Virus record (IMG/VR): IMGVR_UViG_3300042448_001704
Location: 24,776 to 88,775 of that record
Source: a virus
DNA: 64,000 bases
Direction: 5' to 3' (one strand)
Every line of letters begins with the position of its first letter. Position 1 is the stretch's first letter. Below are positions 44,505 through 63,159 of this stretch, piece by piece. The notes below the pieces were generated by a model, which saw only the letters and a program-made list of their open reading frames with translations, had not been told where the DNA came from and did no database searches. The translations under genes were made by a program, and so were the position numbers.

Positions 44505-44987
44505 ACATGGAAGTATATCTAGGACTTTCCTGAAAGTCAAATCGGAAGAAGAATAACCATAACCATCCACGACAAATAAAGTAGAAGGTAAATAGAGAAG
44601 AGAAACTCTTTGGAGGGGGTTCGGGGGAACCTTTTCAAAATTCTCGATTGTTTTTTGGGCAACACAAATAGAACTCTTTGATCGCGGGTGCGATTAGAGT
44701 CTCGGAGTGGCCGGCCGAGTTGCTATACGCCACCGTCAAACATAGGATGCTTCAGGTGGTGAGATGTAAAGATAGCAGGTCTATTTTCTCGATGCAACAC
44801 GTGTTACAAAATAAATGTTATATATGCTGCAGCGACGTTATTGTGAGGCTGCGCGAGTCCCGTTGTTTTATAACGTATTCCGCGAGCACGTAGAAACGTT
44901 TCCGGAAGCCGGCGAAAAAGATTATTTCGCCGCTTTCCGCCACCGTCAAACATAGGATCAAAAAAGCGCCTGGATTTCCAGGCTGGG

Positions 44988-45314
44988 TTATCCCTCTGCG
45001 TGCTCTTCCAGATATTCCATAGCTGCTTGGAAGCCCCGCTTGAGGACTGTAGCCATAATGAATGCCGTGGCTTCTTGATCCGAGAAGTCTCCGTCACTGG
45101 ACGCGATGGCACGTATCTTGTTTTCTATAGCTTGTTCGTTAAATACGACGGTTACGCTTTTGCCGTCAACACTGAAACAAACCGGGCCGTCTTCTTGAAT
45201 CGCCGGCGCTTTAGCTGCAATAATTGTTATTTCTGAACCTTCTGGTTCAGTAACGAATTTTGCAATGATGTCTTGATCGTTATCGTTTGACCAGTCCATA
45301 TGTTCTATTTCCAT
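44988..45314 (-). CDS. Acidic hypothetical protein
   Basis: 108 aa ORF between two non-coding islands. Confidence 0.6.
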   Translation of the reverse strand: MEIEHMDWSNDNDQDIIAKFVTEPEGSEITIIAAKAPAIQEDGPVCFSVDGKSVTVVFNEQAIENKIRAIASSDGDFSDQEATAFIMATVLKRGFQAAMEYLEEHAEG

Positions 45315-45551
45315 AGTTTATTCTTTCTTTTTAAGGTAAAGCTTACGAAAGCCGGAAGACTTTCGCACGGGTTTGTTTTATAAGAATAAACCAATCTGTA
45401 CCAGGAATAATTTTAACGTGTCTCATTTCTTCCTGGAAGAAGATGTTTTCACGGACGTTTGGTGGCCTGTTCGGTAAACCGACGCTGCCTAGATAGAAGA
45501 CGAGAAGTTTTCCTCTTGCCTGGTTGTAAAATCGGCGGCTATCCTCCACCG

Positions 45552-45600
45552 TCAAACATAGGATCAAATTAATATCCAAGGAATTTGACCCTATGTTTGA
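45552..45600. repeat. 19-bp inverted repeat
   Basis: TCAAACATAGGATCAAATT ... AATTTGACCCTATGTTTGA (1 mismatch), overlapping the 16-mer extension. Confidence 0.85.
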
Positions 45601-45639
45601 AGCTGGGGAATGGCTTAGCGCCACTCCCCCGTCTGTACC

Positions 45640-45909
45640 TTAGGAGGCGGTTTCAGATTTTAGTGAGAAGTTCGTCGTTGCGAGCTGCATGCTCAGCATG
45701 CTGTGAATTTCTGCATTTTCAAACATTAGTTCTAGCGGCTGCTCGCTGCCTGGAATGGGGAGCCAATTGCCCAGTTCTGGATCCCAGATTGTTTTTCCAA
45801 ACCGGTGATCTGCTTGATCTTGATCAATTGTGTAAAAAACTTCTTTTGTATCGAGATCAACTTCTGCCGCGACGACAAAAAAATGTTGCCTTGTTCGCTT
45901 TTGTGTCAT
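45640..45909 (-). CDS. Hypothetical protein
   Basis: AAGGGA RBS before MTQKRT. Confidence 0.6.
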   Translation of the reverse strand: MTQKRTRQHFFVVAAEVDLDTKEVFYTIDQDQADHRFGKTIWDPELGNWLPIPGSEQPLELMFENAEIHSMLSMQLATTNFSLKSETAS

Positions 45910-46320
45910 TGTGAATTCCCTTCTAACATAACAAGCACAGCATATCACGGAAAATATCCGTTGTCAATAGTGAATATTTTTAGAAATACTTCTGACATTT
46001 TGACCCTCAGGGGCCTTACGTCTAAAAAAGCAAAAAAAACAACTTTCTGGTTACTGGGACCGGCTCCGCCACTCGATAGAAAAAGCAAAAAAATACTATT
46101 TTTTTTAATTCCGTCCGGTTATCCGCCACCGTCAAGAATAGGATGCCTTTTATTACGTGTTTTATTTAGATTTATCTGAACCAGCTGCTGAGTCAGATCG
46201 CGCAGCTAGCCTGGAAACCCGGGCACGTGCCGGGTAGTCCCGCTGCTGGGATCCAAATTTAGGTGAAAATGTTTTAATAGTTTCACCCAGAAGCCGGCGA
46301 TACGAACTAGTGTTCGGTCT

Positions 46321-46707
46321 ATGACAAATACACGCCTTCCACAGAAATCACGATGGGATCGGAACTTCGCCGCCCTTCAGCAATACGTCGCCAGAACCGG
46401 CAACGCTCTTGTACCGACATCACACACTGAACTGCACGACGACCGCAATGTTCCTATCGGAGCCTGGGTCGCTTACATGCGTCAGCGTGCACGCTTCAAC
46501 AAGCTTCCACAAGATCGTGTTGCAGCACTGGCCGGCCTTCAGGGTTGGGCTTGGGGTCCACTGCGTCCAGGACCATCAGGTGATGATGCACGAGACATCG
46601 AGATTGTGAATCTCCGCAACCAAGGTCACAGTCTTCAGACAATCGCTAAGCAAGTAGGACTTTCACGTCAGCGCGTTCACCAGATTGCAAAAGCTAAAAA
46701 CGCATGA
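46321..46707 (+). CDS. Helicase-associated (HA) domain plus C-terminal HTH protein
   Basis: W...F..L.QY...G...VP...IGAWV...R...L...R...L....WAW; SLQTIAKQVGLSRQRVHQI. Confidence 0.8.
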   Translation: MTNTRLPQKSRWDRNFAALQQYVARTGNALVPTSHTELHDDRNVPIGAWVAYMRQRARFNKLPQDRVAALAGLQGWAWGPLRPGPSGDDARDIEIVNLRNQGHSLQTIAKQVGLSRQRVHQIAKAKNA

Positions 46708-46982
46708 GTAACGAATGGAAGAATCCTCGCTTCCCGTCTTTTGAGATCCCAGAGGAATCCGAGACAGGAGCGCCAGGAAAAGCTATGTCGGTTTTTACCG
46801 CGCTACTGGGACTCGCAATACTTGTATCAACAAATACATTTTTTATTTGGGCAGCTCTTCAACTGTTGGGCCTGGACATTGAATATAGAAAAGCCGTAGG
46901 TGTCTCGATCCTTTGGATAATCTTCAGAGTGTACGATGGCGTGACACTTGGAAAAGCGTTAAGCAAAATTCAGCGACCGTAG
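46704..46982 (+). CDS. Two-TM membrane protein
   Basis: Hydropathy; ATGA overlap. Confidence 0.6.
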   Translation: MSNEWKNPRFPSFEIPEESETGAPGKAMSVFTALLGLAILVSTNTFFIWAALQLLGLDIEYRKAVGVSILWIIFRVYDGVTLGKALSKIQRP

Positions 46983-46985
46983 ATA

Positions 46986-47124
46986 CGGCTGTTGCCCCAT
47001 TGACCAAAAGGAGTAAAGTCAATGGGGCTGCCGGAGCGATAGACATACAATCGAGGTTGTGATGTCGCTCGGTTATGATCCAACAACATAACCAAAGCGA
47101 AAGTGGGGGTTTCCCCCCACTAAC
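46986..47124 (-). ncRNA. Candidate structured RNA (four hairpins, last with anti-Shine-Dalgarno loop)
   Basis: AGTGGGGG-GAAA-CCCCCACT; GGTTATG/CATAACC; GACAT/ATGTC; GCCCCATTGAC-TTTACTCCTTTTG-GTCAATGGGGC. Confidence 0.5.
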
Positions 47125-48645
47125 TTATTTCAGGTACGAACCTGTGGCATTGAAGTATGTCCGTTGCCAAGGTCGTGGCCATTCTGTGCGTGGCTTCATT
47201 CCTGCATTCAGTTGCTCAAGAACTTCTACGCCTTGAGTAACGTTCTTGCGAACAATGACACGACTCTTGATGCATTGATTAATACAATCCATCGCAAGTA
47301 AATCAGAATATCCAGTTCCGTCTCCGTGAATCTCGCCGTCCGTAATAAATACGATTGGGCTTGATGAACGATTACGCTTTGATATTGCGAATGCAAGGGC
47401 CGGTCCGTCCACTCCGTTGTTTCCAGGAAGTGTAGGAAGTGATTGAACCATCTTCCCCTTGTCGGCAAGAATCCAAATGTTTGGAGCACCTGCCGTGGTG
47501 GATGATGAATAAACAACAACCGTAGCGCCTGGCGACTTCTCAACAATGCGAACAATGTCTTCCGTCTTCAATTGCATGGAACCCGAACCATCGATCACAA
47601 CAACACCGCCGTTGCCTTTACGCCATTGATCAAAGACCCTCTTTTCAGGATCAGTCAATGCGTTAGTCAATCTGCGAGGATTGCGACCGAATGCACTAGG
47701 ACGACGCTTCTTACCGAGACCGCCAGGAGCGACACGATTAAGAAGTGACTCACCAAACTTTAATGGAACCCAACTATCAACACCACCACTGCGACGATTA
47801 TTAACAGTATTCTGTTTTTTAACATCATCAGGTGAAATAGGTGCTGGTTTGTTTGCTTTTCCTTTATTAGTTTTAGCGGCCGGTCCATCTGCATCTTCAC
47901 TTTCGTGCTTCTCTTTATGATCAACACTACTTGCTTCGTTTTCGTTCTCTTCCTTTTTCGGTGGATTGGCGAAACGATCCAACAATTCTGCAAGACGTTC
48001 TGTTGTAGAAAATCCGACTGGAGACAAATTGTTTTTCGGGTCAATAGCTGTATCGCTAAGACGACCGTACTTGTCTGCTTTCTTTAATTCTTTTTCAAAC
48101 TTCTTGATAATTGCTTTTAATGAATCGCCCCATTCACGATTGTGACGACGCACACCTGTAAGGAAAGGTTTATTTCCCCCACTGCATGCTGTCGCAATCG
48201 CACCATAAACAGCACCTGTCCAGTCGTCATTCTCTGAAACTTTTTCGCCGGCTGCGAGTTCGCTTCCATCAGAAAGATGGGTAGCAACATCAAAACCTGC
48301 TTTGTTGCAGAGAAAGTTGACACGCATTTCTTCAACGGCGCGCAATGCATTTTCGCTTGCGATCCCACGGTTTAGCCATTCTAAAAAATCGCTTCCAGGA
48401 GATACACGAGCGTGCATCATTTCATGCGCACGAATTGCACGAGCCGTTTGTTCTTGCGAAACAGGTACGACCATCTTTTTACCAACAATGTCGGTATAAG
48501 GAAGGCCGCGAACTGGTGCACATGATTCAATACTCCACGCTCCACCATCTTTGGAGGAGTCCTTTCTTCCCAACATTTCGGGAAGAGGGAGGACTGCCAC
48601 CTCGGAAGGATCGAGCACCTTGTTAGGTGTTGCGAGCATCGTCAT
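47125..48645 (-). CDS. VWA-domain protein with HExxH N-terminal domain (MoxR partner)
   Basis: HEMMH; charged linker; IDGSGSM MIDAS; ITDG. Confidence 0.85.
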   Translation of the reverse strand: MTMLATPNKVLDPSEVAVLPLPEMLGRKDSSKDGGAWSIESCAPVRGLPYTDIVGKKMVVPVSQEQTARAIRAHEMMHARVSPGSDFLEWLNRGIASENALRAVEEMRVNFLCNKAGFDVATHLSDGSELAAGEKVSENDDWTGAVYGAIATACSGGNKPFLTGVRRHNREWGDSLKAIIKKFEKELKKADKYGRLSDTAIDPKNNLSPVGFSTTERLAELLDRFANPPKKEENENEASSVDHKEKHESEDADGPAAKTNKGKANKPAPISPDDVKKQNTVNNRRSGGVDSWVPLKFGESLLNRVAPGGLGKKRRPSAFGRNPRRLTNALTDPEKRVFDQWRKGNGGVVVIDGSGSMQLKTEDIVRIVEKSPGATVVVYSSSTTAGAPNIWILADKGKMVQSLPTLPGNNGVDGPALAFAISKRNRSSSPIVFITDGEIHGDGTGYSDLLAMDCINQCIKSRVIVRKNVTQGVEVLEQLNAGMKPRTEWPRPWQRTYFNATGSYLK

Positions 48646-49364
48646 TAGACACCAACCTTGTCAATTGCAATAGCATCAACGAATGATTGCGCTTGCTGTC
48701 CAAGAATCATTTGAGCCGCGCGCTCATCTCCAAGAGATTTACGCAACTTGTCAAATGCGTAGAATGTACGCAAACTAATGCGACGCTCTCCTGCATCGGC
48801 CATGCGGACTGCATAACCTCGGAGGTCATGAGACAACAATGCGATTGCACTTGGATGTGGTTGATTAATACGAATGGCAACTGGAAAACGGTCACGCAAT
48901 GCTTCAGGAAGTTCACGCATGTCTTCAACGTTTGTCGTCATAACAACGCTGAACCCGTCCTTAGGTGCGATCGTGCGACCGTCCGATGGACGCTCCCACT
49001 TTGCACTGTCAGGTGTGTCGGTCATTGCCAGGAGGGTTGCGAAAACATCGCCACCTGCCTTGTCAATTTCGTCAACTACGAGACGACCACCGCGGATGCC
49101 GTCACCTTGCCATGCTTTTACGGCTGAGCCGTCTTTCCATGACCACTCATTTCCTGATGGAATGTAGTGTCCGGTAACATCACCATTGGTCATGTCTTCT
49201 GTGCAGATCAAACGCCATGCGCCTGCTTCAATATCTCCGTAATGGAGTCCTGCGTAGGTTTTGCCAGTTCCTGGCGGCCCAAACAAGATAAGACGGTCAA
49301 TGCCTGCATTGATTGCGTCTTGAACATCTTGCCAACATTGTGGCAAGTTTTGTACTTCGGTCAT
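48645..49364 (-). CDS. MoxR/CbbQ-like AAA+ ATPase
   Basis: GPPGTGKT, VVDEID, TTN, ALRDRF; AAGGAG RBS. Confidence 0.9.
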   Translation of the reverse strand: MTEVQNLPQCWQDVQDAINAGIDRLILFGPPGTGKTYAGLHYGDIEAGAWRLICTEDMTNGDVTGHYIPSGNEWSWKDGSAVKAWQGDGIRGGRLVVDEIDKAGGDVFATLLAMTDTPDSAKWERPSDGRTIAPKDGFSVVMTTNVEDMRELPEALRDRFPVAIRINQPHPSAIALLSHDLRGYAVRMADAGERRISLRTFYAFDKLRKSLGDERAAQMILGQQAQSFVDAIAIDKVGV

Positions 49365-49553
49365 TTTTAATTCTCCTTTTAGAATTAGTAACTGCTGACG
49401 GAATGTCAACAGTAAAAGCAAGTTTAACAGATGGGTGTGTCAACAATAAGTTGGATTGTTTTGACGATGCCCATCTGTCAACCAATAAAATAAGTCTAGC
49501 ACATGGGTGTGTCAACGTCAAATTGACAAACCCACATACGAGAGCCGGACTTT

Positions 49554-49808
49554 TTAGTCTTCCTGGGAAAAAATACTCTGATCGAGCTGATCAAAGTCAA
49601 TTTCAGGATCCAACCACAAAACACCATCTGGCGTGCGATCGCTCTGCATATATACAGAGATAAAGTCCTTGTATCTTGGCCGGCCGAGTTGGCCGCTGTA
49701 CGCCCCCATATAGGTGGAGTACTTCTTGTAGTTTGACTCATCGTTCATTAGCCACAGATTGATATTCCATGTCTGGCGATTCGTCCAACCGTTATAGTCT
49801 TCTGACAT
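49554..49808 (-). CDS. Conserved phage hypothetical protein
   Basis: YNGWTNRQTWNINLWLMNDE...TPDGV.W. Confidence 0.7.
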   Translation of the reverse strand: MSEDYNGWTNRQTWNINLWLMNDESNYKKYSTYMGAYSGQLGRPRYKDFISVYMQSDRTPDGVLWLDPEIDFDQLDQSIFSQED

Positions 49809-49862
49809 ATCTACTTCCTTTTTTATTAGATAAAGCTGGTGATCATTTCTGATCACCGTTAA

Positions 49863-50012
49863 TTACTTTTTGACTTTATGCCAAAGAGTTTGTGTTTCTT
49901 TAGCATTGCGCTCAAACGCTACGCCAAATACTCCGCCGGCTATCATGCCGCCGAAGAAAAACATCAATTGGATGACATCATTGGATAGGTGGATAGTTAC
50001 GTCTGCAATCAT
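49863..50012 (-). CDS. 49 aa single-TM protein (not in ORF track)
   Basis: MIADVTIHLSNDVIQLMFFFGGMIAGGVFGVAFER...; has its own promoter cassette and RBS. Confidence 0.6.
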   Translation of the reverse strand: MIADVTIHLSNDVIQLMFFFGGMIAGGVFGVAFERNAKETQTLWHKVKK

Positions 50013-50137
50013 TTCTGATTCCCTTTCTTTATATTACAAGCCTATCATATGGGTGTGTCATAGTCAAGGCTTCTTTATATAACAAGTATATATGAGGGGT
50101 GTATCGAGGTTAATCCCTGGCTATACTCCACCGTCAG

Positions 50138-50332
50138 ATGTATCAATGCGAAATTTGTGGGATTTCCCTACGTCCAAACGATCCAGGGATCGCGATCAAG
50201 ATCCTGGGCTGGTCGGCAGCTAAAAACGGGCGCGCCGGGTCAGTCCCGTTCAAGTATGAAGGGCCTCTGGGGTATGCCCACAAAATCTGCCTGGATACGA
50301 AAGAAGCCGGCGAAATGCCGACTCTTTTCTAA
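50138..50332 (+). CDS. Small Zn-finger-like protein
   Basis: CEIC...HKIC; ATG follows TATACT embedded in the 16-mer. Confidence 0.55.
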   Translation: MYQCEICGISLRPNDPGIAIKILGWSAAKNGRAGSVPFKYEGPLGYAHKICLDTKEAGEMPTLF

Positions 50333-50341
50333 GCGCGGTCT

Positions 50342-50851
50342 TTACAGACCGCCTATTGGATGTTTGTGCTTGTAGAACTCATGAGGTGGCTTTGAGATGC
50401 GGCCATCCGATAGCCACTTGATGTAAAGGTGGACAAACGTTGCCCTGAGATCCTTCGCTGTAACGCCCCACTCTTCCAGATTGGATGCGAAATAACCTGC
50501 ATCGAGGTCGCTGTGCATATTGGCAAGAGCTTCTGCGCCGTCCATGACTCCAATGCTGTAGTAGTTCTCCGTGAGGATCCCTTCAATGTCTTCCCATAGC
50601 TCGGAAGTCTGCTGATACTGGATCTGCTTCACAACCTTGTCTAAGACATCTGGATTGTTCGTGCTGGTTACTTCAACTACTGTTTTGCCAGAAATGTATG
50701 CAATATGGTAACCCATAAGGAACGTCCCACCCTGGGTGCCTTCTAGTCCGGTTTCGGTGACAATAACTGTGTCGTAAAGGTTGAGCGGTTTATCCAAAAC
50801 ATCCGACACGCGGAGAAGTTTTGATCCGTCTGGTAATGATGTCCAGGTCAT
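50342..50851 (-). CDS. Hypothetical protein
   Basis: Long ORF in early cluster. Confidence 0.6.
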   Translation of the reverse strand: MTWTSLPDGSKLLRVSDVLDKPLNLYDTVIVTETGLEGTQGGTFLMGYHIAYISGKTVVEVTSTNNPDVLDKVVKQIQYQQTSELWEDIEGILTENYYSIGVMDGAEALANMHSDLDAGYFASNLEEWGVTAKDLRATFVHLYIKWLSDGRISKPPHEFYKHKHPIGGL

Positions 50852-50922
50852 ATATTCTTCTTTCAATAAAAATAGGACCGGCCGTTTTGGCCGATCTGTA
50901 AGCATCCCCTTTCGGGGATTTA

Positions 50923-51213
50923 TTAGTAGTCGTTTCCGTGTTCGTCGCTGAACAATAGTTCTTTGAGCCGTATCGGAGAGTTGAAGTCTTCTTCTGCTAT
51001 GAGCTGAACGCGCTCCAGAACATCATCGAGAGTCAGTTCCAGGTCGTCGTCGTCGCCCACACGATTATCTTCGCGCAGTTGCTGAACAATTACATCCACA
51101 TCATAGGTGAACACCCGCATCACGTTGATGCGAGTGACTGCTTCACCTTCTTCAGTATTTAGTACCAACACGTTAGACCATCCGCATATTCTGCTGCCCA
51201 CTTGAGATACCAA
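50923..51213 (-). CDS. Acidic hypothetical protein (start uncertain)
   Basis: C-terminal FSDEHGNDY; follows upstream gene. Confidence 0.5.
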   Translation of the reverse strand: MVSQVGSRICGWSNVLVLNTEEGEAVTRINVMRVFTYDVDVIVQQLREDNRVGDDDDLELTLDDVLERVQLIAEEDFNSPIRLKELLFSDEHGNDY

Positions 51214-51653: not shown

Positions 51654-51742
51654 TTTTACTCCTTTAGTAAATTGTATATTACAAGCACATTATACCAATA
51701 GGGTGTGTCAAGGTTTCCCCCAACACACCCAATAACTAACGT

Positions 51743-52300: not shown

Positions 52301-52335
52301 AGTGTTTCTCCTTTCAAGAAATAAGCCTGATAGGG

Positions 52336-53679: not shown

Positions 53680-53916
53680 ATGGAAACATTACTAGACAAA
53701 AGCATGAGCATGAGAGAAAGCATAGCTCTGCTCAAAAACGTGGAACAAAGGCCGCAAAGTCGGTTCCGTCTGGGATCACCCTGTCGTTTCATTAGACAAC
53801 TGGACATCCTGGTTCACGTGATCACGCCAGAACTAGTAGAAGATTTCTTCCCGCAACTCTGTGGATATCTCCGAAGCACATCCCCGCGATGGGGAAGATC
53901 CTGGAGAGATTGGTAG
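53680..53916 (+). CDS. Hypothetical protein
   Basis: Leaderless-type start 7 nt after the -10 of a promoter cassette. Confidence 0.45.
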   Translation: METLLDKSMSMRESIALLKNVEQRPQSRFRLGSPCRFIRQLDILVHVITPELVEDFFPQLCGYLRSTSPRWGRSWRDW

Positions 53917-54207
53917 CGGCTATCCGCCACCGTCGCGAATAGTAAAAAACCGGACTCGCCGGCTTGGCCCCGGATCAGCTCCCTCGGATCAACCCTGGCA
54001 GTCCCGCCGCAGGCGAACAAACGAACGTACGTTCGGGACTCCCGAAGGGCTATTGCTCGATCGGTTTGCTGCACCAATCACACGTGCGACCTGGCCGATA
54101 ATCCGGATCGGTATTTTTTAGCTCACGCGGATCGATCACCTGGTGACTTCCGTGATTATTGCAATAAAGATACCTTCCGTCGCGCCATCCAATAACTTTT
54201 TCTTCCA

Positions 54208-54938: not shown

Positions 54939-54940
54939 TC

Positions 54941-55627: not shown

Positions 55628-55708
55628 TTGGTTTACTCCTTTAGTAAATGTTACAAGTGTATTATATCAAGCGGGTGTGCCGGGGTTTCCCCCGACACTT
55701 CAATGAGA

Positions 55709-55939: not shown

Positions 55940-56037
55940 TTTTACTCCTTTAGTAAATATTACAAGATTAGTATATCACGTGGGTGTGTCATAGTCAAGC
56001 CCCCCCCACCCGTGAGGGCAGGGGGTAGTGAGTTGTA

Positions 56038-56460
56038 TTAGCGAACTCTGTTTTCCCACATTTGCTCTACTGCTAGAGCCAATGAACCAGACGCGTTGCC
56101 GTAATCTTCCACGATTTCAACTCCATCAGGTCGGGTGATCTCCAGGATTGAGGCTTTACCCTCATCATTTATGACATAGACCATATGGACGCGTACACGA
56201 TCAGGGTGCTCGCTTGGGGGTACATCCCCAATTTCGTTGTCTGGGTTGAGTGGGGCTGCCCATCCAACCGTCTCAACCCCGACTGCAATAGCAGAGGGTG
56301 GGATGACTGCGCTGTCTAGAGCTTGATAGATATCCGCATTGAGTGAGATAGTTTTTATGCTTCCACCATCAAACATGGCAAAGACGCCGGCTTTGGATCG
56401 GTCTAAACCATCTAGGAAATCTAGTAATTCGCGTGCATGGATAATAGTTGGGGTATTCAT
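56038..56460 (-). CDS. Hypothetical protein
   Basis: GWAAP...PPSEHPDRVRV...GSLA. Confidence 0.7.
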   Translation of the reverse strand: MNTPTIIHARELLDFLDGLDRSKAGVFAMFDGGSIKTISLNADIYQALDSAVIPPSAIAVGVETVGWAAPLNPDNEIGDVPPSEHPDRVRVHMVYVINDEGKASILEITRPDGVEIVEDYGNASGSLALAVEQMWENRVR

Positions 56461-56555
56461 GTTATTCCTTTCAAGAATATAAGTATCGGTGATCCGATAT
56501 AACAAGCAGTATATAGGAAGGGTGTGTCGGGGTTTCCCCCGACGTTCCCAACTGA

Positions 56556-56975
56556 CTAATCCTGGATGCTGAAAGACTGGACAACCTTGCGCTGACGGTG
56601 AGTACCGCCCTCGATGGTTTCTGCCCACATTTCGTTATCTTCTCCACGCATGATCCAAGTGATTGAATCGGTAGATACGGAACCAATGGCATCCCATACT
56701 TCATCCCAACACATTCCGATCTTGTCGCCGCCCCAGTCATTTAGGACAACGTTGGAATCTTTGAGTTCGGTGAGGAACCCGTAGTCATCCATGATCGTTT
56801 TTACAACGACTGACAAATTAGCTTCTACTAATATGTATTCGTCAATGGTGTTGCACCATGAGATATGACCAATCTTTGACTCTGCTTTACGCAGACCCTC
56901 AATCAGTCGTGGCATGTCTTTGGCTGCGAGTGTGATCTCGCTTGACATTTGTTCGGTATCGGCACAGTAGCCCAT
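56556..56975 (-). CDS. Hypothetical protein
   Basis: MGY start, GEDNEMW; cassette upstream. Confidence 0.7.
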   Translation of the reverse strand: MGYCADTEQMSSEITLAAKDMPRLIEGLRKAESKIGHISWCNTIDEYILVEANLSVVVKTIMDDYGFLTELKDSNVVLNDWGGDKIGMCWDEVWDAIGSVSTDSITWIMRGEDNEMWAETIEGGTHRQRKVVQSFSIQD

Positions 56976-57335
56976 ATTGTTTTACTCCTTATAGTAAATG
57001 TTACAAGCGCAGTATATCAGAGGGGTGTGTCAAGGTCAAGCCAGGGTACAGCTGATCGAGGGGGTGTGTCAGGGTTTCCCAGGTGCGCGATCCAAAAAGT
57101 AGCTTTTTGTGACGTTTTCCCGGAAGCCGGGTATTTTTGCCGGCTATCCGCCACCGTGAACTGTTCTGAAACACATTTCCGATCCTGGGGAGTCCCGCTG
57201 GTGAGCGGCTGAAGCGCGCCGGAAATCACGTTGCCGCGCCGGGTCGGGACTGCCGGGCCGATCGGAAGCTGCCGATTTGACAAGACGTTATATTTCTGAT
57301 ACACTCAGGATCTATATTTTATCTAAGGAGTAAAA

Positions 57336-57797
57336 ATGCCGGAATTAGCAATTTTATCTGATGCCCAGGAACATGAGTTTGTTTCTTTTCTTCAGAACAA
57401 CAAGAGTAAGAGCTCTTTTTACGCGGACCTACTAAGCAAGTACAACAAGTTTGGTGGACTGACTCAAGGTCAGTGGGATGCCGTAGAAAAGTCAATCCCC
57501 CGTGAACAAGCGGCCGACCTTCGTGCCTTGCGATTAGCAAAGAGCGGAGCGGTGATCGTTGAAGGTATCCACGAGATTACGGGAACCGTACTATCCCTGA
57601 AGGCTCACGATAGTCGTGGACTGGTGTTCACGATCGAGACTGATGAGGAACTACGACTGTGGGGAACCGTACCCGCCGATATGCGGGAAGATATCAAGGT
57701 GGGCAGCAAAGTTACTTTTGTTGCGGAGATCCTAAGTTCTAAACCTGACCCAACTTTTGGGTTCTTCAAGAAACCCCGTGCAGGAATGATCCTGTAA
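57336..57797 (+). CDS. Hypothetical protein with OB-fold-like C-terminus
   Basis: F..DL......G.LT.GQ; ITGTV...WGTVP...VTF.A...FGFFKKP. Confidence 0.7.
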   Translation: MPELAILSDAQEHEFVSFLQNNKSKSSFYADLLSKYNKFGGLTQGQWDAVEKSIPREQAADLRALRLAKSGAVIVEGIHEITGTVLSLKAHDSRGLVFTIETDEELRLWGTVPADMREDIKVGSKVTFVAEILSSKPDPTFGFFKKPRAGMIL

Positions 57798-57816
57798 GGA
57801 CCGGCCACGATAAAGC

Positions 57817-57853
57817 AAAAAGCCCCCCACCCGTGAAGGTGAGGGGCTTTTTT
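57817..57853. terminator. Bidirectional intrinsic terminator
   Basis: AAAAGCCCC...GGGGCTTTTTT between convergent genes. Confidence 0.8.
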
Positions 57854-57858
57854 GTGGA

Positions 57859-58083
57859 TTAGGCGAACTGGGGAGCGCGCATTGTTAGATCAACGCTCAC
57901 AGTTCTAATCTGAACCTCATGAAAATACTTTCGGTAGGTCATTGCTTTTGACTGTGCCTGACGTTCTGCTAGAGCGCCCGTGAAGATTACCCATTCTGTC
58001 GGGTGGAGTGCGAAGTCCCCCTTGAAAATAGGATCTTTATGATCGAGCGGCAGGTGGGCGAGAACAATGTAACTATTCGTCAT
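57859..58083 (-). CDS. Hypothetical protein
   Basis: Coupled to upstream gene. Confidence 0.55.
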   Translation of the reverse strand: MTNSYIVLAHLPLDHKDPIFKGDFALHPTEWVIFTGALAERQAQSKAMTYRKYFHEVQIRTVSVDLTMRAPQFA

Positions 58084-58427
58084 TATTGCTCCCACGCCAT
58101 TTCTATCATCTCATCCCATTCGGTGATGAGTGCCGTGTCATTGGTTTCCATTGTGATGTCAAAACGAATGTCACCGTCGCAGGCGTACCATTCTGTCGGA
58201 TGAGTTGCTAACCATTCGGTTAGTTCATACTGTGACTGGTACGAGCGAACGATAGTCATTAGTTCGGCAAGGCATTGAGCTGAGGCGTATGCGTAATCTT
58301 CTTGATCACCGCTACCTGCATCCCAAGGGAACATTCCGGCGACACGAGCTGCTGCCAGCTCTACGATTGTCTGAAGATCAACTTTCTGAACGATTTGTTC
58401 TGCTAGTTCTTTTTGGCTCCGTGCCAT
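58083..58427 (-). CDS. Hypothetical protein
   Basis: Promoter cassette at 58471; AAAGGGG RBS. Confidence 0.65.
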   Translation of the reverse strand: MARSQKELAEQIVQKVDLQTIVELAAARVAGMFPWDAGSGDQEDYAYASAQCLAELMTIVRSYQSQYELTEWLATHPTEWYACDGDIRFDITMETNDTALITEWDEMIEMAWEQ

Positions 58428-58520
58428 TGTTGGTACCCCTTTCAGTTGGTATATAACAAGTGTATCATATGGGTGTGTCAGGGTCAACGTTATGTGCGCG
58501 GCCGGCCCCAGGACGCCCAA

Positions 58521-58559
58521 AAGCCCCTCAACCTGTCATGTCTGAGGGTTGAGGGGCTT
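58521..58559 (-). terminator. Terminator hairpin
   Basis: AAGCCCCTCAACC ... GGTTGAGGGGCTT. Confidence 0.7.
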
Positions 58560-58571
58560 AGGTAGTTTGGG

Positions 58572-58781
58572 CTAGTTAGACGAGTCTACGAGCCACTCTG
58601 AGTTGATGTCACGAGCGACACACTCGGTACCGATAAAGGAACCGAACATGAGGGTCTCACGACAGTCAAGAAGGGCTACGACATACCCAAGGTCTGCCAT
58701 GACCGATCGCTGATCGGTGAGCCTGATGAGCTTTGCACCTGAGTAGGGGTGACCTTTGGGGACTTGAAGTGTAATGGACAT
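58572..58781 (-). CDS. Hypothetical protein
   Basis: AAAGGAG RBS. Confidence 0.6.
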   Translation of the reverse strand: MSITLQVPKGHPYSGAKLIRLTDQRSVMADLGYVVALLDCRETLMFGSFIGTECVARDINSEWLVDSSN

Positions 58782-59034
58782 TGTTTCTCCTTTATTGAAA
58801 CGTCGCGACCAGTGCGGAAGCGATATAGGTACTTTATCAAAAGGGTGTATCAGGGTTTCCCCCGACACACCCCGTCTAGTTAGTGGAGCTGCCCCTTCGG
58901 ATCGGAAGGACATACAACTCCGTGGATGTATAAAAGCATTATAGCAAAAGGGTGTATCAAGGTTTCTAGGGGATCAACCCTGGCACACCCCCCTGATATA
59001 CTGTGCATATAAGATTTAGTGAAAGGAACTAAAC

Positions 59035-59235
59035 ATGGCAACATCAACAAAAAAGGGAGATCGAGTACGTCTCGTCTCAACAAGTGACAGCGGAACTCGC
59101 CTCAAGTCAGGCGACGAAGGCGTAGTCATGTCAGCGAGAATTGACCCTTGGGGTGACTTCACAATCAGCGTCAAGTGGGATAGTGGCTCAAGCCTCTCGC
59201 TCATCAGTGGCGAAGATTACTGGCAAGTAATCTAA
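59035..59235 (+). CDS. DUF4314-like SH3-fold protein
   Basis: GDRVRLV...GDEGVV...D...VKWDSGSSLSLI...D. Confidence 0.8.
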   Translation: MATSTKKGDRVRLVSTSDSGTRLKSGDEGVVMSARIDPWGDFTISVKWDSGSSLSLISGEDYWQVI

Positions 59236-59241
59236 AGACAC

Positions 59242-59276
59242 AAAAACCCTCACTCATCACGAGTGGGGGTTTTTTT
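59242..59276 (+). terminator. Intrinsic terminator
   Basis: AAAACCCTCACTC...GAGTGGGGGTTTTTTT. Confidence 0.8.
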
Positions 59277-59589
59277 ACGCGATTCGGGACTCCCGGGCCA
59301 GGACGTGAGACAAAAAGACAAAAGCTGTCTCGATGTCGCCGCTATACGCCACCGTCGTAAGTTCTTATTTTTTTCTGGTTTTCCCGGCTTTTCGGGACTT
59401 CGCCAGGCAGCGCGCTGCGCGCAGCTCCAGATCAGCCGCTCTGGGAGTCCCGACTTTCGGGCAGCTCAGCTGCAGCTTGATCCCCGATCCCAGGCAGCGC
59501 GATCCCAGGAAAGCCGTAGATCAGGAACTTTCAACATTGGCACACCCTTATGATAGAACATACTTGTAATATTTACTGAAGGAGTAAAC

Positions 59590-59796
59590 ATGGTAATAGC
59601 AAGTATAAGAACAGCAAAGGACACAGACAAGGTGATCACTAATCGCCAATTCTCTGATCTGAAAGCTGCGCAAGGATTCTGTGACTCAATAATCGGAGAC
59701 TACTCAGATAACCACGGAACTGTGGAGTTCATACTCTTGACGGATTATGAAACTGGATTATCGGAAGAATACAGCATTGAAGATGGGGGTAAATAA
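59590..59796 (+). CDS. Hypothetical protein
   Basis: Full cassette with AAGGAGTAAA. Confidence 0.7.
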   Translation: MVIASIRTAKDTDKVITNRQFSDLKAAQGFCDSIIGDYSDNHGTVEFILLTDYETGLSEEYSIEDGGK

Positions 59797-59797
59797 T

Positions 59798-60211
59798 ATG
59801 ACCGACATGCTCACGCTCAAAGGAACGATCACCAACTCATGCACTTGTGTCTCATACGATGAGGACAAGGGCGACTTTGCGGAAGCACCAGAGTGTTGGG
59901 GCGACTGTTGGGAATACTCATTAGAGGACTTCGCCAATGTCACCGAGTCTCTCCGTAACGACAACCCAACCGACTACTGGAAGGTTGAGAATCTTCGCCT
60001 ATGGAATGGTGAAGTCTCGGGCCACTTTGAGGCTAGGACTGTTGAGGATCTGTTGCGCGGAATGACTGTTCGCAGCGAGTGGTCAATGAGCTATGAGATC
60101 TTTGCTGATCGCATTGAGTACTCACTATCTCACCACGACTCACCTACGGGTAGCACCAGCGTTCTCCGTCCAGTAGAGGCAGAGGAATACGAAGAAAGAT
60201 ATAGGTGGTAA
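59798..60211 (+). CDS. Conserved phage hypothetical protein
   Basis: CTC...CWGDC; LWNG; SHHDSPTG. Confidence 0.7.
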   Translation: MTDMLTLKGTITNSCTCVSYDEDKGDFAEAPECWGDCWEYSLEDFANVTESLRNDNPTDYWKVENLRLWNGEVSGHFEARTVEDLLRGMTVRSEWSMSYEIFADRIEYSLSHHDSPTGSTSVLRPVEAEEYEERYRW

Positions 60212-60320
60212 AGGCTAACAGCCGGCCAGGGGCGTGGTTACTGATCACAACCCTGGCACACCCATTTGATAGAACATACATATTGTTTCAACCTGAAGCG
60301 AGAATCTTGAAAGGATTACC

Positions 60321-60491
60321 ATGACCGATCTACACGAAGAACTTTGCGAACTTTGCGAAGACAAAGTTGATTATTGCGAGTGCCGTCGCTGCGAACTCTG
60401 CGGAGAACTCACCTTGGGCGAAGACGCTGTTGTCAATGACATGTGCCTCAACTCTGGTGACGACGGTATCTGTGGCGGAGACTTCATTTAG
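60321..60491 (+). CDS. 56 aa Cys-rich acidic protein (not in ORF track)
   Basis: MTDLHEELCELCEDKVDYCECRRCELCG...; promoter box, RBS and terminator. Confidence 0.65.
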   Translation: MTDLHEELCELCEDKVDYCECRRCELCGELTLGEDAVVNDMCLNSGDDGICGGDFI

Positions 60492-60505
60492 TCGCCTCAA
60501 CACCT

Positions 60506-60535
60506 AGCCCCTGCCCTGATCGGTAGGGGCTTTTT
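60506..60535 (+). terminator. Intrinsic terminator
   Basis: AGCCCCTGCC...GGTAGGGGCTTTTT. Confidence 0.75.
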
Positions 60536-60632
60536 GTTGTCTGATCCCTGATCGCAAACGTTGGCACACCCATTTGATAGAACATACATATAGCCCTCAC
60601 CGCGGGGGCGACGATCTAAAGGAGATCCCATA

Positions 60633-60782
60633 ATGGAACAACACGAATACGAACACTCGCACCTGAACAACTGCCAGGCATGCGACGAGCATGCCGATCG
60701 CATGCAGCGCCGTCAAGATAGGCAGAACCGCCAGTGGGCAACCCAAGCCCGCCTAGGTGTTCCAATGAGGGGGTCACGATGA
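60633..60782 (+). CDS. 49 aa hypothetical protein (not in ORF track)
   Basis: AAAGGAG RBS; MEQHEYEHSHLNNCQAC... Confidence 0.55.
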   Translation: MEQHEYEHSHLNNCQACDEHADRMQRRQDRQNRQWATQARLGVPMRGSR

Positions 60783-60985
60783 TAGTGAAGGATCAGCGGA
60801 ACTGGTCAGTCTGGGTAGGTGGTGGTGAAGTCAATGACTACTACCTACCCTTAGACAAAGCCCTCAACTTGGCCTCAGACTTCTCTGGCGACGGTTACGA
60901 CGATGTACTTATCATGGAAGAAGTAAGCAAAAAATTCTACTTACCTAACCACCCAGTCTTTGGTCAAATAACGATACTGAAGTAG
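60779..60985 (+). CDS. Hypothetical protein
   Basis: WSVWVGGGEVNDYYL...GYDDV; ATGA overlap. Confidence 0.65.
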   Translation: MIVKDQRNWSVWVGGGEVNDYYLPLDKALNLASDFSGDGYDDVLIMEEVSKKFYLPNHPVFGQITILK

Positions 60986-60991
60986 GCACTC

Positions 60992-61022
60992 AAGCCCCTG
61001 CCCTAACGGGTGGGGGCTTTTT
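60992..61022 (+). terminator. Intrinsic terminator
   Basis: AAGCCCCTGCCC...GGGTGGGGCTTTTT. Confidence 0.8.
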
Positions 61023-61077
61023 GCTGTCTCTACGGCTTCCCAGGGCGGATCGTGGCCGGTCCTGAAACTACGACAAC

Positions 61078-61130
61078 AAAGAGAAAGAGTGAGGTGGCAG
61101 GCAGAAAGGAGTAAAGACCCGCCACCTCAC
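61078..61130 (-). ncRNA. Candidate small hairpin RNA with anti-Shine-Dalgarno loop
   Basis: TACAAT -10 at 61143-61138; GTGAGGTGGCGGG-TCTTTACTCCTTTCTG-CCTGCCACCTCAC then T-rich tail. Confidence 0.55.
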
Positions 61131-61410
61131 GGAAAGAATTGTACTTCATGTCATGAGCGCGAATCCATACCTTCACAATATTTGTTGCGCAGCTGGTGAT
61201 CGCGGAAAACAGCTGAAGTTTGGAAGTCCCGACGTCGGCCGAGCCGCAGCTGGAAGCCGGGAAAAAGACGTTTTTTATCCTGGAAGCGGCACGTTTCTGG
61301 CCGCACGCGCTGCGAAAATAAAAAGCGGGACTACTGATCCGAAGCTGGGCGCGCCTGATCCCAGACAGCAAAAAACCCGCCCCATCGCTGGAGCGGGCCT
61401 TTTAGTTTCT

Positions 61411-61632
61411 TTACAGAACTACGACGCTGATTACATCGCTAAATGTGAGGGCCACATCGTCTTGGTGCGGAGCTTCAAGATCCGCTTGTGTGATGGTGAA
61501 CTCTTGAGTGGCGAGGTTGAGATCCTCAATGCACCACCCGTCGTAGTTCCCTTGAGTTGTCTCAAGCTCATGAAACAGACGTTTTTCATCCTGGCAGCGC
61601 CAGAGCGTTTCCGCAATTTCTATTGTTTTCAT
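61411..61632 (-). CDS. Hypothetical protein
   Basis: Full cassette; terminator at about 61370-61403. Confidence 0.7.
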   Translation of the reverse strand: MKTIEIAETLWRCQDEKRLFHELETTQGNYDGWCIEDLNLATQEFTITQADLEAPHQDDVALTFSDVISVVVL

Positions 61633-61778
61633 TTTACTCCTTCAGTAAATACTATATGCATAGTGTATCAGGGGGGTGTGTCAATGTCAAATCCGGTCGC
61701 CGGAACCCCGATACACCCCTTTGTTATACTTGTTCTTATAGCCCTCACGGTGGGGGTGATAGTTCAGAAGGAGAACAA

Positions 61779-61913
61779 ATGAGCTACATTCCAGCTCCAG
61801 CAAATCACACGCTTGAAGTTTGCACAGTGTGCCAGCACTACTACGGCCGCCCAAAAAGCGATCAAAAACGTGTTTGCCCAGTATGCACAAAAAACCGGAA
61901 AAGAAAAGCTTGA
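61779..61913 (+). CDS. 44 aa Zn-ribbon protein
   Basis: CTVC...CPVC; AAGGAG RBS. Confidence 0.6.
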   Translation: MSYIPAPANHTLEVCTVCQHYYGRPKSDQKRVCPVCTKNRKRKA

Positions 61914-61969
61914 CCCTGACACACCCATTAGATATACTACACTTGTAAGTTTTTATGAAAGGAAACAGC

Positions 61970-62296
61970 ATGACCACCCGAATTAGAGAAGGTCGCTACT
62001 GCGATGCAACCACGATCCTCCGTCAAATAGGCGGAACAACCGTTATGGCGGTTACTGGTGGCCGCTACGGAGTTATCCGAGACAGCGAACAAGAAGTAAT
62101 CGGAGTTCAACTTATCTGTAGCGCCAACCGCACAGTAGAAGTAACCCTATCTTTTATGGATACCTACACTGTCCGTCGCTACCGCACCGTAGTTCGTGGA
62201 GAGCGTCGTGGAGACGACATTGTGGAGTACGAAGCAACCGACATTTATTGTGACCAACTAAGCGATGTCGTTTATACGGCAGGTTGTTGGAAGTAA
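61970..62296 (+). CDS. Conserved phage hypothetical protein
   Basis: ILRQIGG...DTYTV...DIYCDQL; promoter and terminator 62308-62338. Confidence 0.75.
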   Translation: MTTRIREGRYCDATTILRQIGGTTVMAVTGGRYGVIRDSEQEVIGVQLICSANRTVEVTLSFMDTYTVRRYRTVVRGERRGDDIVEYEATDIYCDQLSDVVYTAGCWK

Positions 62297-63159
62297 CCAC
62301 AGCGAGAGAGCCTCACCCTAACGGGTGGGGCTTTTTTTGTTGCCTATTGCGGCTATCCGCTACCGCATTAAATTAAACGTCATTTTTCTGGCGCGCCGTG
62401 GCCTGGGATCAGAGCTTCAAATTCCGGATTGCGCAGCTTGGGATCAGAAAACCAGAAGTCCCGACCGGGTTGTTTCCCGGTTTCAACACGTCTGGCCCGG
62501 CTTTATTTCCGGTTTATTCGTTTTTATTCCGGTTTTGACGTGCAGCTCGCGCCGGGTTTGGCAGCTCGATCCCGGGAAAGCAGCTCGATGCGGCAGCAGC
62601 GCGGCAGTCCCGATGGCAACTCGATACGTTACGTGTAAAAAAATAACGTTTACGCGAACCCTTTCGCCGGCAAAAACAAACTTTTTGATTTATTAACCAG
62701 GCTTTTAGACGTAAAAACTGCGGCTATACGCCACCGTCACTTGTTCTTGATTATTTTGTCAAGTTATCTTGAGAGCGGCTCGGCCGCCAGCAGCGCGATC
62801 TAGACGTTGCTGCCGGGTTGTCGGGACTTCCCGGCAGATCCGTCCGGAATTTAGCTCGATTTAGCAGCTTTTTTAGCAGCTCGATCCGGACGTGCAGCTC
62901 GATCCGGAACTGGGGAGAGTCCCGCAAAAACCGGGTGACGTGCACTGCGCTGCGCGCGCCGGAAACGAAGAAAAGTCACTTTTTCCAGTTCTTTCGTACT
63001 TCTTGAAAAAAAGGAATTGCCAGAATGGTTCCCCAAACGGCCACTGGGATAACAAGAATGTCTGGCGTAAATAGCATAAATAGTGCAAAAAATGTTAAAG
63101 TAATCAAGTCTTTTATTTGTTTATCAATCATTCGCACATCCTATTGAGTTTCGGGCAAA

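What the first reader, a model, noticed from the sequence alone, without database searches (positions are those of the whole stretch)
44680..63060. Non-coding islands tagged by a same-strand 16-mer and packed with restriction-modification-type sites
Seen: eight mostly ORF-free islands (about 44680-44990, 45340-45640, 45950-46320, 53880-54200, 57080-57310, 59280-59530, 61150-61370, 62340-63060). All but the 61.2 kb island carry GCTATMCKCCACCGTC on the + strand. They do not align with one another, yet they are built from the same short words separated by A/T tracts: CCGG, ACGT, AGCT, GATC, GCGC, CGCG, (C)TCGA(T), CCWGG, GCWGC and asymmetric GGGAC/GTCCC (usually AGTCCCG). Hand counts: 62341-63000 has 16 CCGG, 10 ACGT, 9 AGCT, 7 GATC and 6 TCGA in 660 nt (about 2.5-4 each expected); 53881-54150 has 7 GATC, 4 CCGG, 4 CCWGG; 59281-59530 has 5 AGCT, 5 GATC, 4 CCWGG, 7 GCWGC. 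Established: these are targets of common type II enzymes (HpaII, MaeII, AluI, Sau3AI/Dam, HhaI, EcoRII/Dcm, TseI, BsmFI), and phages usually avoid such sites. Inference: the sites are positively selected, for example as decoys or sponges for host restriction or methyl-sensing proteins in the early region, or as methylation-dense patches read by a phage protein that loads at the 16-mer. I know of no described system with this layout.
Basis: partly seen in the sequence, partly recalled or inferred. Interest (0 to 1): 0.9.

Follow-up and report, generated by a model that had tools for sequence, protein, structure and literature searches.

The report
Restriction-site-packed spacers behind one-way box
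In an uncultured lake phage that otherwise avoids restriction-enzyme sites, the non-coding gaps between its early gene cassettes each start with a clade-wide, one-directional 16-base box and are crammed with those same sites; this lineage also carries an unusually long, modular cytosine DNA methylase, so the gaps are more likely methylation-target or regulatory patches than decoys.

Summary
There are ten same-strand copies of GCTATMCKCCACCGTC, one of them diverged. After dinucleotide correction ACGT, GATC, AGCT and CCGG are 2-3.5 times enriched (z 5.6-7.6). Site density is 70/kb in the 150 nt after a box, against 22/kb in the rest of the early region. The late region purges the same words (TCGA O/E 0.06).

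New here:
- The box is a hallmark of a large clade of 100-170 kb freshwater, probably actinobacterial, phages. I found 217 copies on one strand and none on the other across 80 loci.
- The box always points the same way as a conserved two-domain HA+HTH DNA-binding gene (window 46321-46707), the candidate reader.
- Relatives have removed GATC, AGCT and TCGA from entire genomes.
- About 12 kb beyond the window, this lineage encodes a 615-aa C5 methylase with a ~350-aa modular variable region.

The islands are non-coding, depleted in ATG/CAT, and less diverged than the surrounding DNA in the one informative strain comparison.

The decoy idea has no support. "Methylation-dense patches beside a protein-loading box" is plausible but unproven. 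A neutral word-copying origin is not excluded. The scan noted the same layout before on other DNA (e1-5969435, e1-5320964, e1-5744087).

The parts
44722..44737 (+). box copy 1 (16-mer)
44932..44947 (+). box copy 2 (1 mismatch)
45538..45553 (+). box copy 3
46118..46133 (+). box copy 4, 187 nt upstream of the HA+HTH gene
53919..53934 (+). box copy 6
57143..57158 (+). box copy 7 (1 mismatch)
59341..59356 (+). box copy 8
62352..62367 (+). diverged box copy (3 mismatches), directly after a terminator-like hairpin
62723..62738 (+). box copy 10
44680..44990 (.). site-dense non-coding island 1
45340..45640 (.). island 2 (least site-dense; holds a 93-aa minus-strand ORF of unknown status)
45950..46320 (.). 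island 3
53880..54200 (.). island 4; holds AGTCCCG ... CGGGACT around a 14-nt perfect palindrome (54022-54035); variant alleles in lake populations keep the same words
57080..57310 (.). island 5, ends at a sigma-70-like promoter (57277-57305) for gene 57336-57797
59280..59530 (.). island 6, between a terminator-like hairpin and promoter 59537-59564
61150..61370 (.). island 7, without a box
62340..63060 (.). island 8, the densest (19 sites per 150 nt)
62542..62907 (+). six or seven same-strand copies of (G)CAGCTCGAT(CC) with phased A/T tracts, next to the SNF2 gene: iteron-like
46321..46707 (+). 128-aa HA-domain + HTH (sigma-70 region 4 / resolvase type) protein, candidate reader of the box
50138..50332 (+). 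conserved 64-aa CxxC...HxxC protein gene; contains several island words in its variable parts
63160..63999 (+). 5' part of an SNF2 helicase gene (continues in L071); contains the same words

Best explanation
The islands are the non-coding boundary spacers of a cassette-built early region in an uncultured freshwater, probably actinobacterial, phage of about 130-150 kb.

Each spacer begins, in a fixed genome direction, with an asymmetric box. The extended consensus is GCTWTMCGCCACCGTC, then a purine, then N4, then TTG. The box is most likely the binding site of a conserved two-domain HA+HTH protein. It would work like a stoperator or insulator-type boundary mark, not as a promoter or a terminator. 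This step is inferred.

Downstream of the box lie GC-rich words. One of them is the clade-wide AGYCCCG/CGGGRCT.

In this lineage alone, the spacers have also filled with the 4-bp sites that relatives purge: GATC, ACGT, AGCT, CCGG, GCGC, CGCG, TCGA, CCWGG and GCWGC. This is tolerable because the lineage carries a 615-aa C5 methylase with a roughly fourfold oversized, modular target-recognition region, probably multispecific. In virion DNA the spacers would then be dense 5-methylcytosine patches next to the box and the early promoters. This is inferred, not shown.

My best guess is that the patches modulate protein binding or transcription at cassette boundaries rather than absorb restriction enzymes.
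For: Box.
- Ten copies, all on the + strand.
- Four relatives have 3-13 copies each, all on one strand, clustered in 18-20 kb where the whole array is on the contig; the reversed-pattern control finds none.
- 87 distinct copies give the extended consensus, with a purine at position 17 in 86 of 87.
- In 80 loci fetched through the HA+HTH protein alone, 61 hold the box: 217 copies co-oriented with the gene and 0 opposite, over 1.2 Mb.
- The core CCACCGTC and the HTH recognition-helix residues RQRVHQ are both invariant.
- The gene has a box within 250 nt upstream in 29 of 79 loci.
- The protein model has pLDDT 84.8; its C-terminal HTH resembles resolvase and sigma-4 type DNA binders.
- The box lies in gaps, overlaps stop codons or sits inside ORFs in relatives. 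It keeps its direction where local genes flip.

Sites.
- Statistics.
- Flanks are variable.
- Relatives purge the same words.

Methylase.
- The link to this lineage is a chain of overlapping contigs: window to L071 (98.2%), then L071 to L078 (99.5%).
- L078 encodes a 615-aa PF00145 protein with core residues 5-194, motifs IX-X at the C-terminus and about 350 aa between.
- Family members range from 420 to 878 aa, with block-wise insertions and deletions only in the variable region.
- G000-G004 hold no PF00145 gene.

Constraint.
- Against strain L174 the islands differ at 12 of 715 nt. The rest of that 5.6-kb alignment differs at 205 of about 4890 nt.
- CAT, ATG, GAG and AGG are the most depleted trinucleotides in the islands.
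Against: - No methylation data, so the methylase's targets are unknown. It sits on a different contig of a near-identical strain, not on this contig.
- A relative with a 642-aa methylase of the same kind (G035) has no packed spacers and no AGCT.
- Site positions are not significantly more conserved than other island positions: 8 changes against 12.5 expected.
- Against strain L003, two of three islands are more diverged than their surroundings.
- TaqI-type enzymes are, to my knowledge, not blocked by C5 methylation. TCGA is nevertheless 10-30 times denser here than in the late region.
- Island words also occur in coding DNA.
- The co-occurrence of box and protein could be shared ancestry alone.
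- Population deletions join at repeated promoters, not at boxes.
Confidence: 0.42

Rival explanations
1. Neutral by-product. With selection against sites relaxed (by self-methylation or a permissive host), fast-turning non-coding spacers drift towards GC-rich, cryptically simple sequence. Short-patch copying and quasi-palindrome correction amplify whatever words are present. TpA and ATG avoidance then leave mainly GATC, ACGT, AGCT, CCGG, GCGC and CGCG.
For: - Seventy-one per cent of island bases lie in 7-mers that recur three or more times.
- A lake variant of the 53.95-kb island differs by a 12-nt patch that copies a neighbouring GGATCAACCC word.
- Site positions are not significantly conserved.
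- The non-enriched palindromes are those containing TpA or ATG.
- In the wider clade the 150 nt after a box is typically only about 1.4 times denser than the rest (my reading of the ratio column).
Against: - O/E of 1.4-3.2 remains after trinucleotide correction.
- GGCC and TGCA contain neither TpA nor ATG, yet are not enriched.
- Against L174 the islands are less diverged than the surrounding DNA.
- After-box density of 70/kb is the highest among 81 loci.
Confidence: 0.27
2. Decoys or sponges. The clusters titrate host restriction enzymes or methyl-sensing proteins away from the rest of the genome.
For: The enriched words match those purged in relatives and in the late region. The clusters lie in the early region.
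Against: - An unmethylated cluster on the same molecule would be cleaved and would kill that genome. A methylated one does not bind type II enzymes.
- No DNA-mimic or anti-restriction gene is linked to the islands.
- The early-domain genes themselves are also site-richer than the late genes, which a decoy model does not predict.
Confidence: 0.06
3. Restriction-and-repair scars. Cuts in dispensable spacers are repaired by end joining or recombination of site-ended fragments. Sites and site-bounded words multiply in spacers while genes stay purged.
For: - Sites have variable flanks.
- Words occur in both orientations.
- CpG O/E is 1.0-1.5 in islands against 0.83 elsewhere.
- Four of the sites (CCGG, ACGT, TCGA, GCGC) can, from known enzymes, give the same CG overhang. 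This last point is my own knowledge.
Against: No direct trace. AGCT and CGCG enzymes cut blunt. The islands are conserved between strains.
Confidence: 0.07
4. At least the 62.3-63.0 kb island is a replication origin or another protein-array site (iterons with bent A/T tracts), and the site density is incidental to that.
For: - Six or seven same-strand (G)CAGCTCGAT(CC) copies and phased T-tracts lie beside SNF2, SSB and primase-helicase genes.
- In relatives, two or three perfect DnaA boxes sit next to one box copy.
Against: No DnaA-box cluster in the window. This explains one island of eight. There are no replication data.
Confidence: 0.12
5. The islands encode small proteins or structured RNAs.
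For: ORFs of 64-123 aa overlap several islands. The fold z reaches about -3 for some.
Against: - No homologues for any island ORF in relatives, apart from the near-identical strain L003.
- No protein-level remnants of the zinc-ribbon gene.
- No Rfam hit.
- ATG and SD-like words are depleted on both strands.
- Fold z-scores are weak and similar on both strands.
Confidence: 0.04

Closest known systems
Operator/stoperator sites of cluster A mycobacteriophages (L5 gp71, TipsytheTRex repressor; PMC9283540)
   Same: A short asymmetric site in many copies, in short intergenic gaps and sometimes within genes, with a strict orientation rule. It is read by a small monomeric protein with two helical DNA-binding domains. 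The host is an actinobacterium.
   Different: - 16-17 bp here against 13 bp.
- Confined to an 18-20 kb early domain rather than spread genome-wide.
- No sequence or fold match to gp71.
- Binding is not shown.
- The phage is large and has no sign of lysogeny in the parts seen.
PeSL (promoter-early stem-loop) regulatory cassettes of T4-type phages (Arbiol et al. 2010, PMC2839356)
   Same: Small early genes carry their own near-identical sigma-70 promoters and terminator hairpins. Strains differ by cassette gain and loss, with joints in the repeated regulatory DNA.
   Different: The box itself is neither promoter nor terminator. The spacers are long and site-dense, which PeSLs are not.
Multispecific C5 DNA methyltransferases of Bacillus phages SPR, phi3T, rho11s (Trautner et al. 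1996, cited in PMC12707154; own knowledge)
   Same: A phage-borne C5 methylase whose variable region is several times the monospecific size and varies by whole blocks between relatives. It would self-protect against several 4-bp-site enzymes.
   Different: No detectable sequence similarity of the variable region to other phage enzymes beyond weak hits. Its specificities are unknown. No site-dense spacers have been described for the Bacillus phages, to my knowledge.
Restriction-site avoidance and the site-free first-entering DNA of T5-type phages (own knowledge; scan notes e1-5857633, e1-5969435)
   Same: Strong purging of 4-bp palindromes, differing between genome domains. G001 purges ACGT only in its early domain.
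   Different: Here the polarity is reversed. The early domain, and above all its spacers, is the site-rich part.
Methylation-site clusters used as switches (GATC clusters at oriC/SeqA, P1 pac, Mu mom; own knowledge)
   Same: Local clusters of methylase targets next to protein-binding sites.
   Different: Those involve one adenine-methylated site type. Here at least six cytosine-containing site types occur in eight patches, and no reader is known.

Membership tests
Stoperator-type repressor sites (cluster A mycobacteriophages) | Many copies of a short asymmetric site | tested here: met
   10 copies here; 3-13 in relatives (8-13 where most of the array is on the contig); 217 in 80 loci
Stoperator-type repressor sites (cluster A mycobacteriophages) | Orientation follows the local direction of transcription | tested here: inconclusive
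   The direction is constant in the genome. Most neighbouring genes in G001 run opposite to the box as written, but in the window both gene orientations flank boxes.
Stoperator-type repressor sites (cluster A mycobacteriophages) | Cognate gp71-type repressor | tested here: not met
   The candidate reader is an HA+HTH protein. Foldseek gives only weak resolvase or sigma-4 type HTH matches.
Stoperator-type repressor sites (cluster A mycobacteriophages) | Protein binding that blocks transcription | not testable with these tools
   Needs EMSA or footprinting and transcription assays.
PeSL cassettes | Repeated sigma-70 promoter plus terminator stem-loop at cassette borders | tested here: met
   TTGAC(A/C/T)-N17-TAnACT promoters and hairpin-plus-T-run sites flank the cassettes.
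PeSL cassettes | Recombination between the repeats creates cassette gain and loss | tested here: met
   Joints 55958/57001, 59531/60248 and 61692/61905 in lake contigs; L174 lacks 59564-60247.
PeSL cassettes | The repeated element is itself the promoter or terminator | tested here: not met
   The box has no -35/-10 arrangement and no hairpin, and it occurs inside ORFs in relatives.
Multispecific C5 DNA methyltransferase | C5 catalytic motifs I-VIII and IX-X | tested here: met
   PF00145 E 6.5e-52; M.HhaI residues 12-172 aligned.
Multispecific C5 DNA methyltransferase | Enlarged variable region made of several target-recognising modules | tested here: met
   About 350 aa between the cores, against about 90 aa in M.HhaI. 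There are block-wise presence/absence differences among homologues of 420-859 aa.
Multispecific C5 DNA methyltransferase | Methylates several different sites | not testable with these tools
   Needs expression and a methylome.
Restriction-site avoidance | Observed/expected well below 1 for palindromic sites | tested here: met
   Late region: TCGA 0.06, ACGT 0.41, AGCT 0.55, CCGG 0.55. G001 has 0 GATC, AGCT or TCGA in 128.6 kb.
T7-type phage RNA polymerase promoter | A single-subunit RNA polymerase gene in the genome | tested here: not met
   PF00940 was absent from G000-G004, including the complete G001. The control genomes also lacked it, so this is weak evidence.
Known RNA families / tRNA | Covariance-model or ARAGORN match | tested here: not met
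   Only tRNA-Arg at 37737-37812.

The most novel reading that the evidence does not exclude
The box, its HA+HTH reader and the site-packed spacers form an epigenetic boundary system. The phage's multispecific methylase turns each spacer into a dense 5-methylcytosine patch. The difference between fully methylated incoming DNA and unmethylated newly replicated DNA then decides whether the box-bound protein insulates or silences the adjoining early cassette. This would give the phage a replication-coupled early-to-late switch built from restriction-type sites.
Probability: 0.1. Interest if true: 0.85.

Novelty: new variant of a known kind. Interest (0 to 1): 0.62.

Why it matters
Phage genomes are expected to shed restriction sites. 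Here one lineage of a clade that sheds them to an extreme degree concentrates them in defined non-coding patches beside a conserved, one-directional protein-binding box.

If the patches are methylated on purpose, this would be a use of restriction-type sites as regulatory or identity marks in a virus. It would also give a function to the long, modular C5 methylases that are common in metagenomes.

Independently of that, the box and its candidate reader define a large, abundant and uncultured group of lake phages. They offer a simple handle (one protein, one 16-mer) for experiments.

Tried and rejected
- Sigma-70 promoter reading of the box, in either direction: no consistent -35/-10.
- T7-type promoter: no PF00940 gene.
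- Sigma-54, ECF and MotA-box likenesses checked by eye: spacing or conserved bases do not fit.
- ops/RfaH idea: a weak NGN-like hit for 56556-56975 (E 0.006, below the cut-off) is absent from relatives.
- tRNA or Rfam elements: none.
- Islands as decayed copies of the zinc-ribbon gene: no protein-level trace.
- DnaA boxes in the window: at chance level.
- Long perfect palindromes: only 2-4 times enriched.
- Literature search for the 16-mer core: only unrelated primers.
- No close relative among 50,697 deposited phages. The terminase is at most 44% identical, to Gordonia phages.
- RNA run X24: contigs cover the region evenly at DNA-like depth, so transcription cannot be judged.
- Site-versus-non-site conservation: not significant.
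- Link between the methylase and packing was not replicated in G035. Most other contigs are fragments, so the absence of a methylase there says little.
- The fold search for the HA+HTH protein gave no match with E below 0.001.

Full report
**What the DNA is.**
The window is the right-hand 64 kb of an 88,775-bp IMG/VR contig, estimated about 60% complete. The contig holds:
- portal, prohead protease and terminase genes;
- a long block of virion genes;
- from about window 43 kb, a block of small genes, most with their own sigma-70-like promoters and strong ribosome-binding sites.

The terminase is at most 44% identical to any deposited phage; the nearest are Gordonia phages. A contig that continues the right end encodes an Rpf-type transglycosylase. 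Both point to an actinobacterial host. The stretch is present at 90-99% of sampled words in 23 lake-water or freshwater DNA runs. Independent contigs L003, L174, L175 and L071 confirm its continuity.

**The 16-mer.**
- It occurs nine times with at most two mismatches, against 0.01 expected. A diverged tenth copy lies at 62352. All copies are on the + strand, all within window 44.7-62.7 kb, and none lies elsewhere in the contig.
- An exact-pattern scan of IMG/VR found multi-copy, single-strand arrays in many contigs.
- Four larger relatives show 13:0, 8:0, 0:13 and 3:0 copies on the two strands, clustered in 18-20 kb. A reversed-pattern control found none.
- From 87 distinct copies the site extends to GCTWTMCGCCACCGTC, then a purine (86 of 87), then N4, then TT(G).
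- In the compact relative G001 the box sits in very short gaps, overlaps a TGA stop codon, or lies inside ORFs of 159 and 496 aa.
- In the window it keeps its direction whether the flanking genes are on the minus strand (44-57 kb) or the plus strand (57-64 kb).
- It has no usable -35/-10 arrangement in either direction and no hairpin. No T7-type polymerase gene was found.

I therefore read it as a protein-binding mark, not a promoter or terminator.

**A candidate reader.**
Window 46321-46707 encodes a 128-aa protein with a helicase-associated (HA) domain and a C-terminal HTH of the resolvase / sigma-70 region 4 type.
- It is conserved in G001, G002 and G003, each time on the same strand as the box.
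- 43 close homologues share an invariant RQRVHQ recognition helix.
- The model is confident (pLDDT 84.8). It has two helical domains joined by a conserved linker. Fold matches are weak and limited to HTH DNA binders.
- 80 loci were fetched through the protein alone. Of these, 61 hold the box within two mismatches: 217 copies on the gene's strand and none on the other, in 1.2 Mb.
- More distant members carry TCTTCCRCCACCGTC. The core CCACCGTC never changes, while the 5' half does.
- A box lies within 250 nt upstream of the gene in 29 of 79 loci.

This shows co-occurrence and co-orientation. It does not show binding.

**The islands.**
- Against per-island dinucleotide-preserving simulations: ACGT z 7.6, GATC z 6.4, AGCT z 5.7, CCGG z 5.6. 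CGCG, GCGC and TCGA are not significant by this null.
- With a trinucleotide-based expectation, O/E is 3.15 for ACGT and 1.3-1.7 for GCGC, AGCT, GATC, CCGG, CGCG and TCGA. AT-only palindromes, CATG and CTAG are below 1.
- Words of the same composition read backwards are not enriched.
- The flanks of ACGT, GATC and CCGG vary freely. AGCT is mostly GCAGCT.
- Dense bins coincide with the islands and lie to the right of each box. Density is 70 sites/kb in the 150 nt after a box, against 22/kb in the rest of the region. This is the highest value among 81 loci.
- The islands do not align.
- They have no protein homologues in relatives and no Rfam match. Folding signals are weak and similar on both strands.
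- CAT, ATG, GAG and AGG are their most depleted trinucleotides.
- Against strain L174 they differ at 1.7% of positions, while the rest of that alignment differs at 4.2%. Against L003 one island is more conserved and two are less conserved than their surroundings.

**A second clade-wide word.**
AGTCCCG and its complement occur 18 times in the window, 16 of them in islands. None occurs in the first 44 kb. In G001 and G003, AGYCCCG/CGGGRCT is absent from about 80 kb of late genes. It occurs at 2-14 copies per 4 kb over a roughly 36-kb early domain. The copies are often inverted pairs 17-26 nt apart, lying 37-60 nt after a box. This word has nothing to do with restriction sites and is conserved in relatives that have none.

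**Context that changes the picture.**
- The late region of this phage purges the very words that fill the islands. TCGA is 8 observed against 128 expected. ACGT is 0.41, AGCT 0.55, CCGG 0.55, CGCG 0.57 and GATC 0.62.
- The replication module to the right is site-poor again.
- Relatives go much further. G001 has no GATC, AGCT or TCGA in 128.6 kb, and it purges ACGT only in its early domain. G003 has no GATC or AGCT. Several loci lack seven of the sixteen 4-bp palindromes.
- In those relatives the spacers after the box are built from CGCG, GCGC and CA-rich words, the only members of the set still allowed.

**The methylase.**
An earlier scan note (e1-5969435) pointed to a methylase, so I walked off the contig end. 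L071 overlaps the window end at 98.2%, and L078 overlaps L071 at 99.5%. L078 encodes a 615-aa C5 methylase. It has the catalytic core at residues 5-194, motifs IX-X at the C-terminus and about 350 aa between them, roughly four times the monospecific size. Homologues range from 420 to 878 aa, and those I aligned (420-859 aa) differ by whole blocks within that region only. This is the architecture known from multispecific phage methylases. No C5 methylase was found in G000-G004. It was found in only 3 of 69 further related or motif-bearing records. One of those, G035 (642 aa), shows no packed spacers, so the association is suggestive, not established.

**Evolution of the region.**
Lake contigs show cassette deletions that join at repeated promoters. 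L174 lacks one whole cassette. A variant of the 53.95-kb island differs by a short patch that copies a neighbouring word. Within islands, substitutions hit site positions 8 times against 12.5 expected, which is not significant.

**Reading.**
Shown:
- the box, its clade-wide strand rule and its association with the HA+HTH gene;
- the site enrichment and its contrast with purging elsewhere;
- the modular methylase in the lineage.

Inferred:
- the protein binds the box;
- the methylase covers the island sites;
- the patches act on binding or transcription at cassette borders.

The decoy reading has no support and is mechanistically awkward. A neutral origin through relaxed selection and word copying remains a serious rival. 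The densest island may additionally be an origin-like protein array.

Noticed in passing
G001 (L058-L064, L054), G003 (L055, L056, L065-L070): Complete relatives contain no GATC, AGCT or (G001) TCGA in 128-133 kb. G001 removes ACGT only from about 88-120 kb, the early domain, as expected for DNA that must work before restriction is disarmed.
   Followed up: partly
L054 about 10215-10265; L057 about 10500-10560: Two or three perfect DnaA boxes (TGTGGATAA) lie between a minus-strand promoter and a box copy in G001 and G002. This may be a replication origin. There is no such cluster in the window.
   Followed up: partly
window 55958/57001, 59531/60248, 60751/61001, 61692/61905: Lake-metagenome contigs join these points, so whole cassettes are present or absent between strains. 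The joints lie in the repeated TTGAC...TAnACT promoters.
   Followed up: partly
window 50138-50332 (+): A conserved 64-aa CxxC...HxxC protein gene starts 2 nt after a box and has no Shine-Dalgarno sequence. In G001 its homologue starts 46 nt after a box. It may be a leaderless or box-driven transcript.
   Followed up: partly
window 56556-56975 (-): A 139-aa protein gives a weak, sub-threshold match to the NusG/Spt5 NGN domain (E 0.006). It is not found in four relatives.
   Followed up: partly
window 47125-49421 (-): A conserved pair of a 258-aa AAA_5 (MoxR/McrB-type) ATPase and a 506-aa protein of unknown family (phrog_33218). In G001 a box copy lies in the middle of the large gene.
   Followed up: no
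window 50040-50113, 57011-57075, 61662-61700 (-): Early promoters share a conserved spacer, TTGACA(C)ACCCC...; the same box was noted by the scan in another genome (e1-5971245).
   Followed up: no
L078 11265-11915 (-): Directly upstream of the 615-aa methylase lies a 216-aa ORF that matches only the first third of the C5-methylase profile. It may be a truncated second methylase or a regulatory fragment.
   Followed up: no
L071 about 1645-1720: A tRNA-like sequence (TAGCTCAGTTGG...) follows the SNF2 gene just beyond the window's end.
   Followed up: no
window 21390-22895 (+): A tryptophan-halogenase-family gene (phrog_2928, E 2.6e-100) sits among the virion genes.
   Followed up: no
L072 / G005 33841-34792: A more distant relative has a C5 methylase with a normal-sized variable region, interrupted by an in-frame TGA. 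Its genome lacks GATC only.
   Followed up: no
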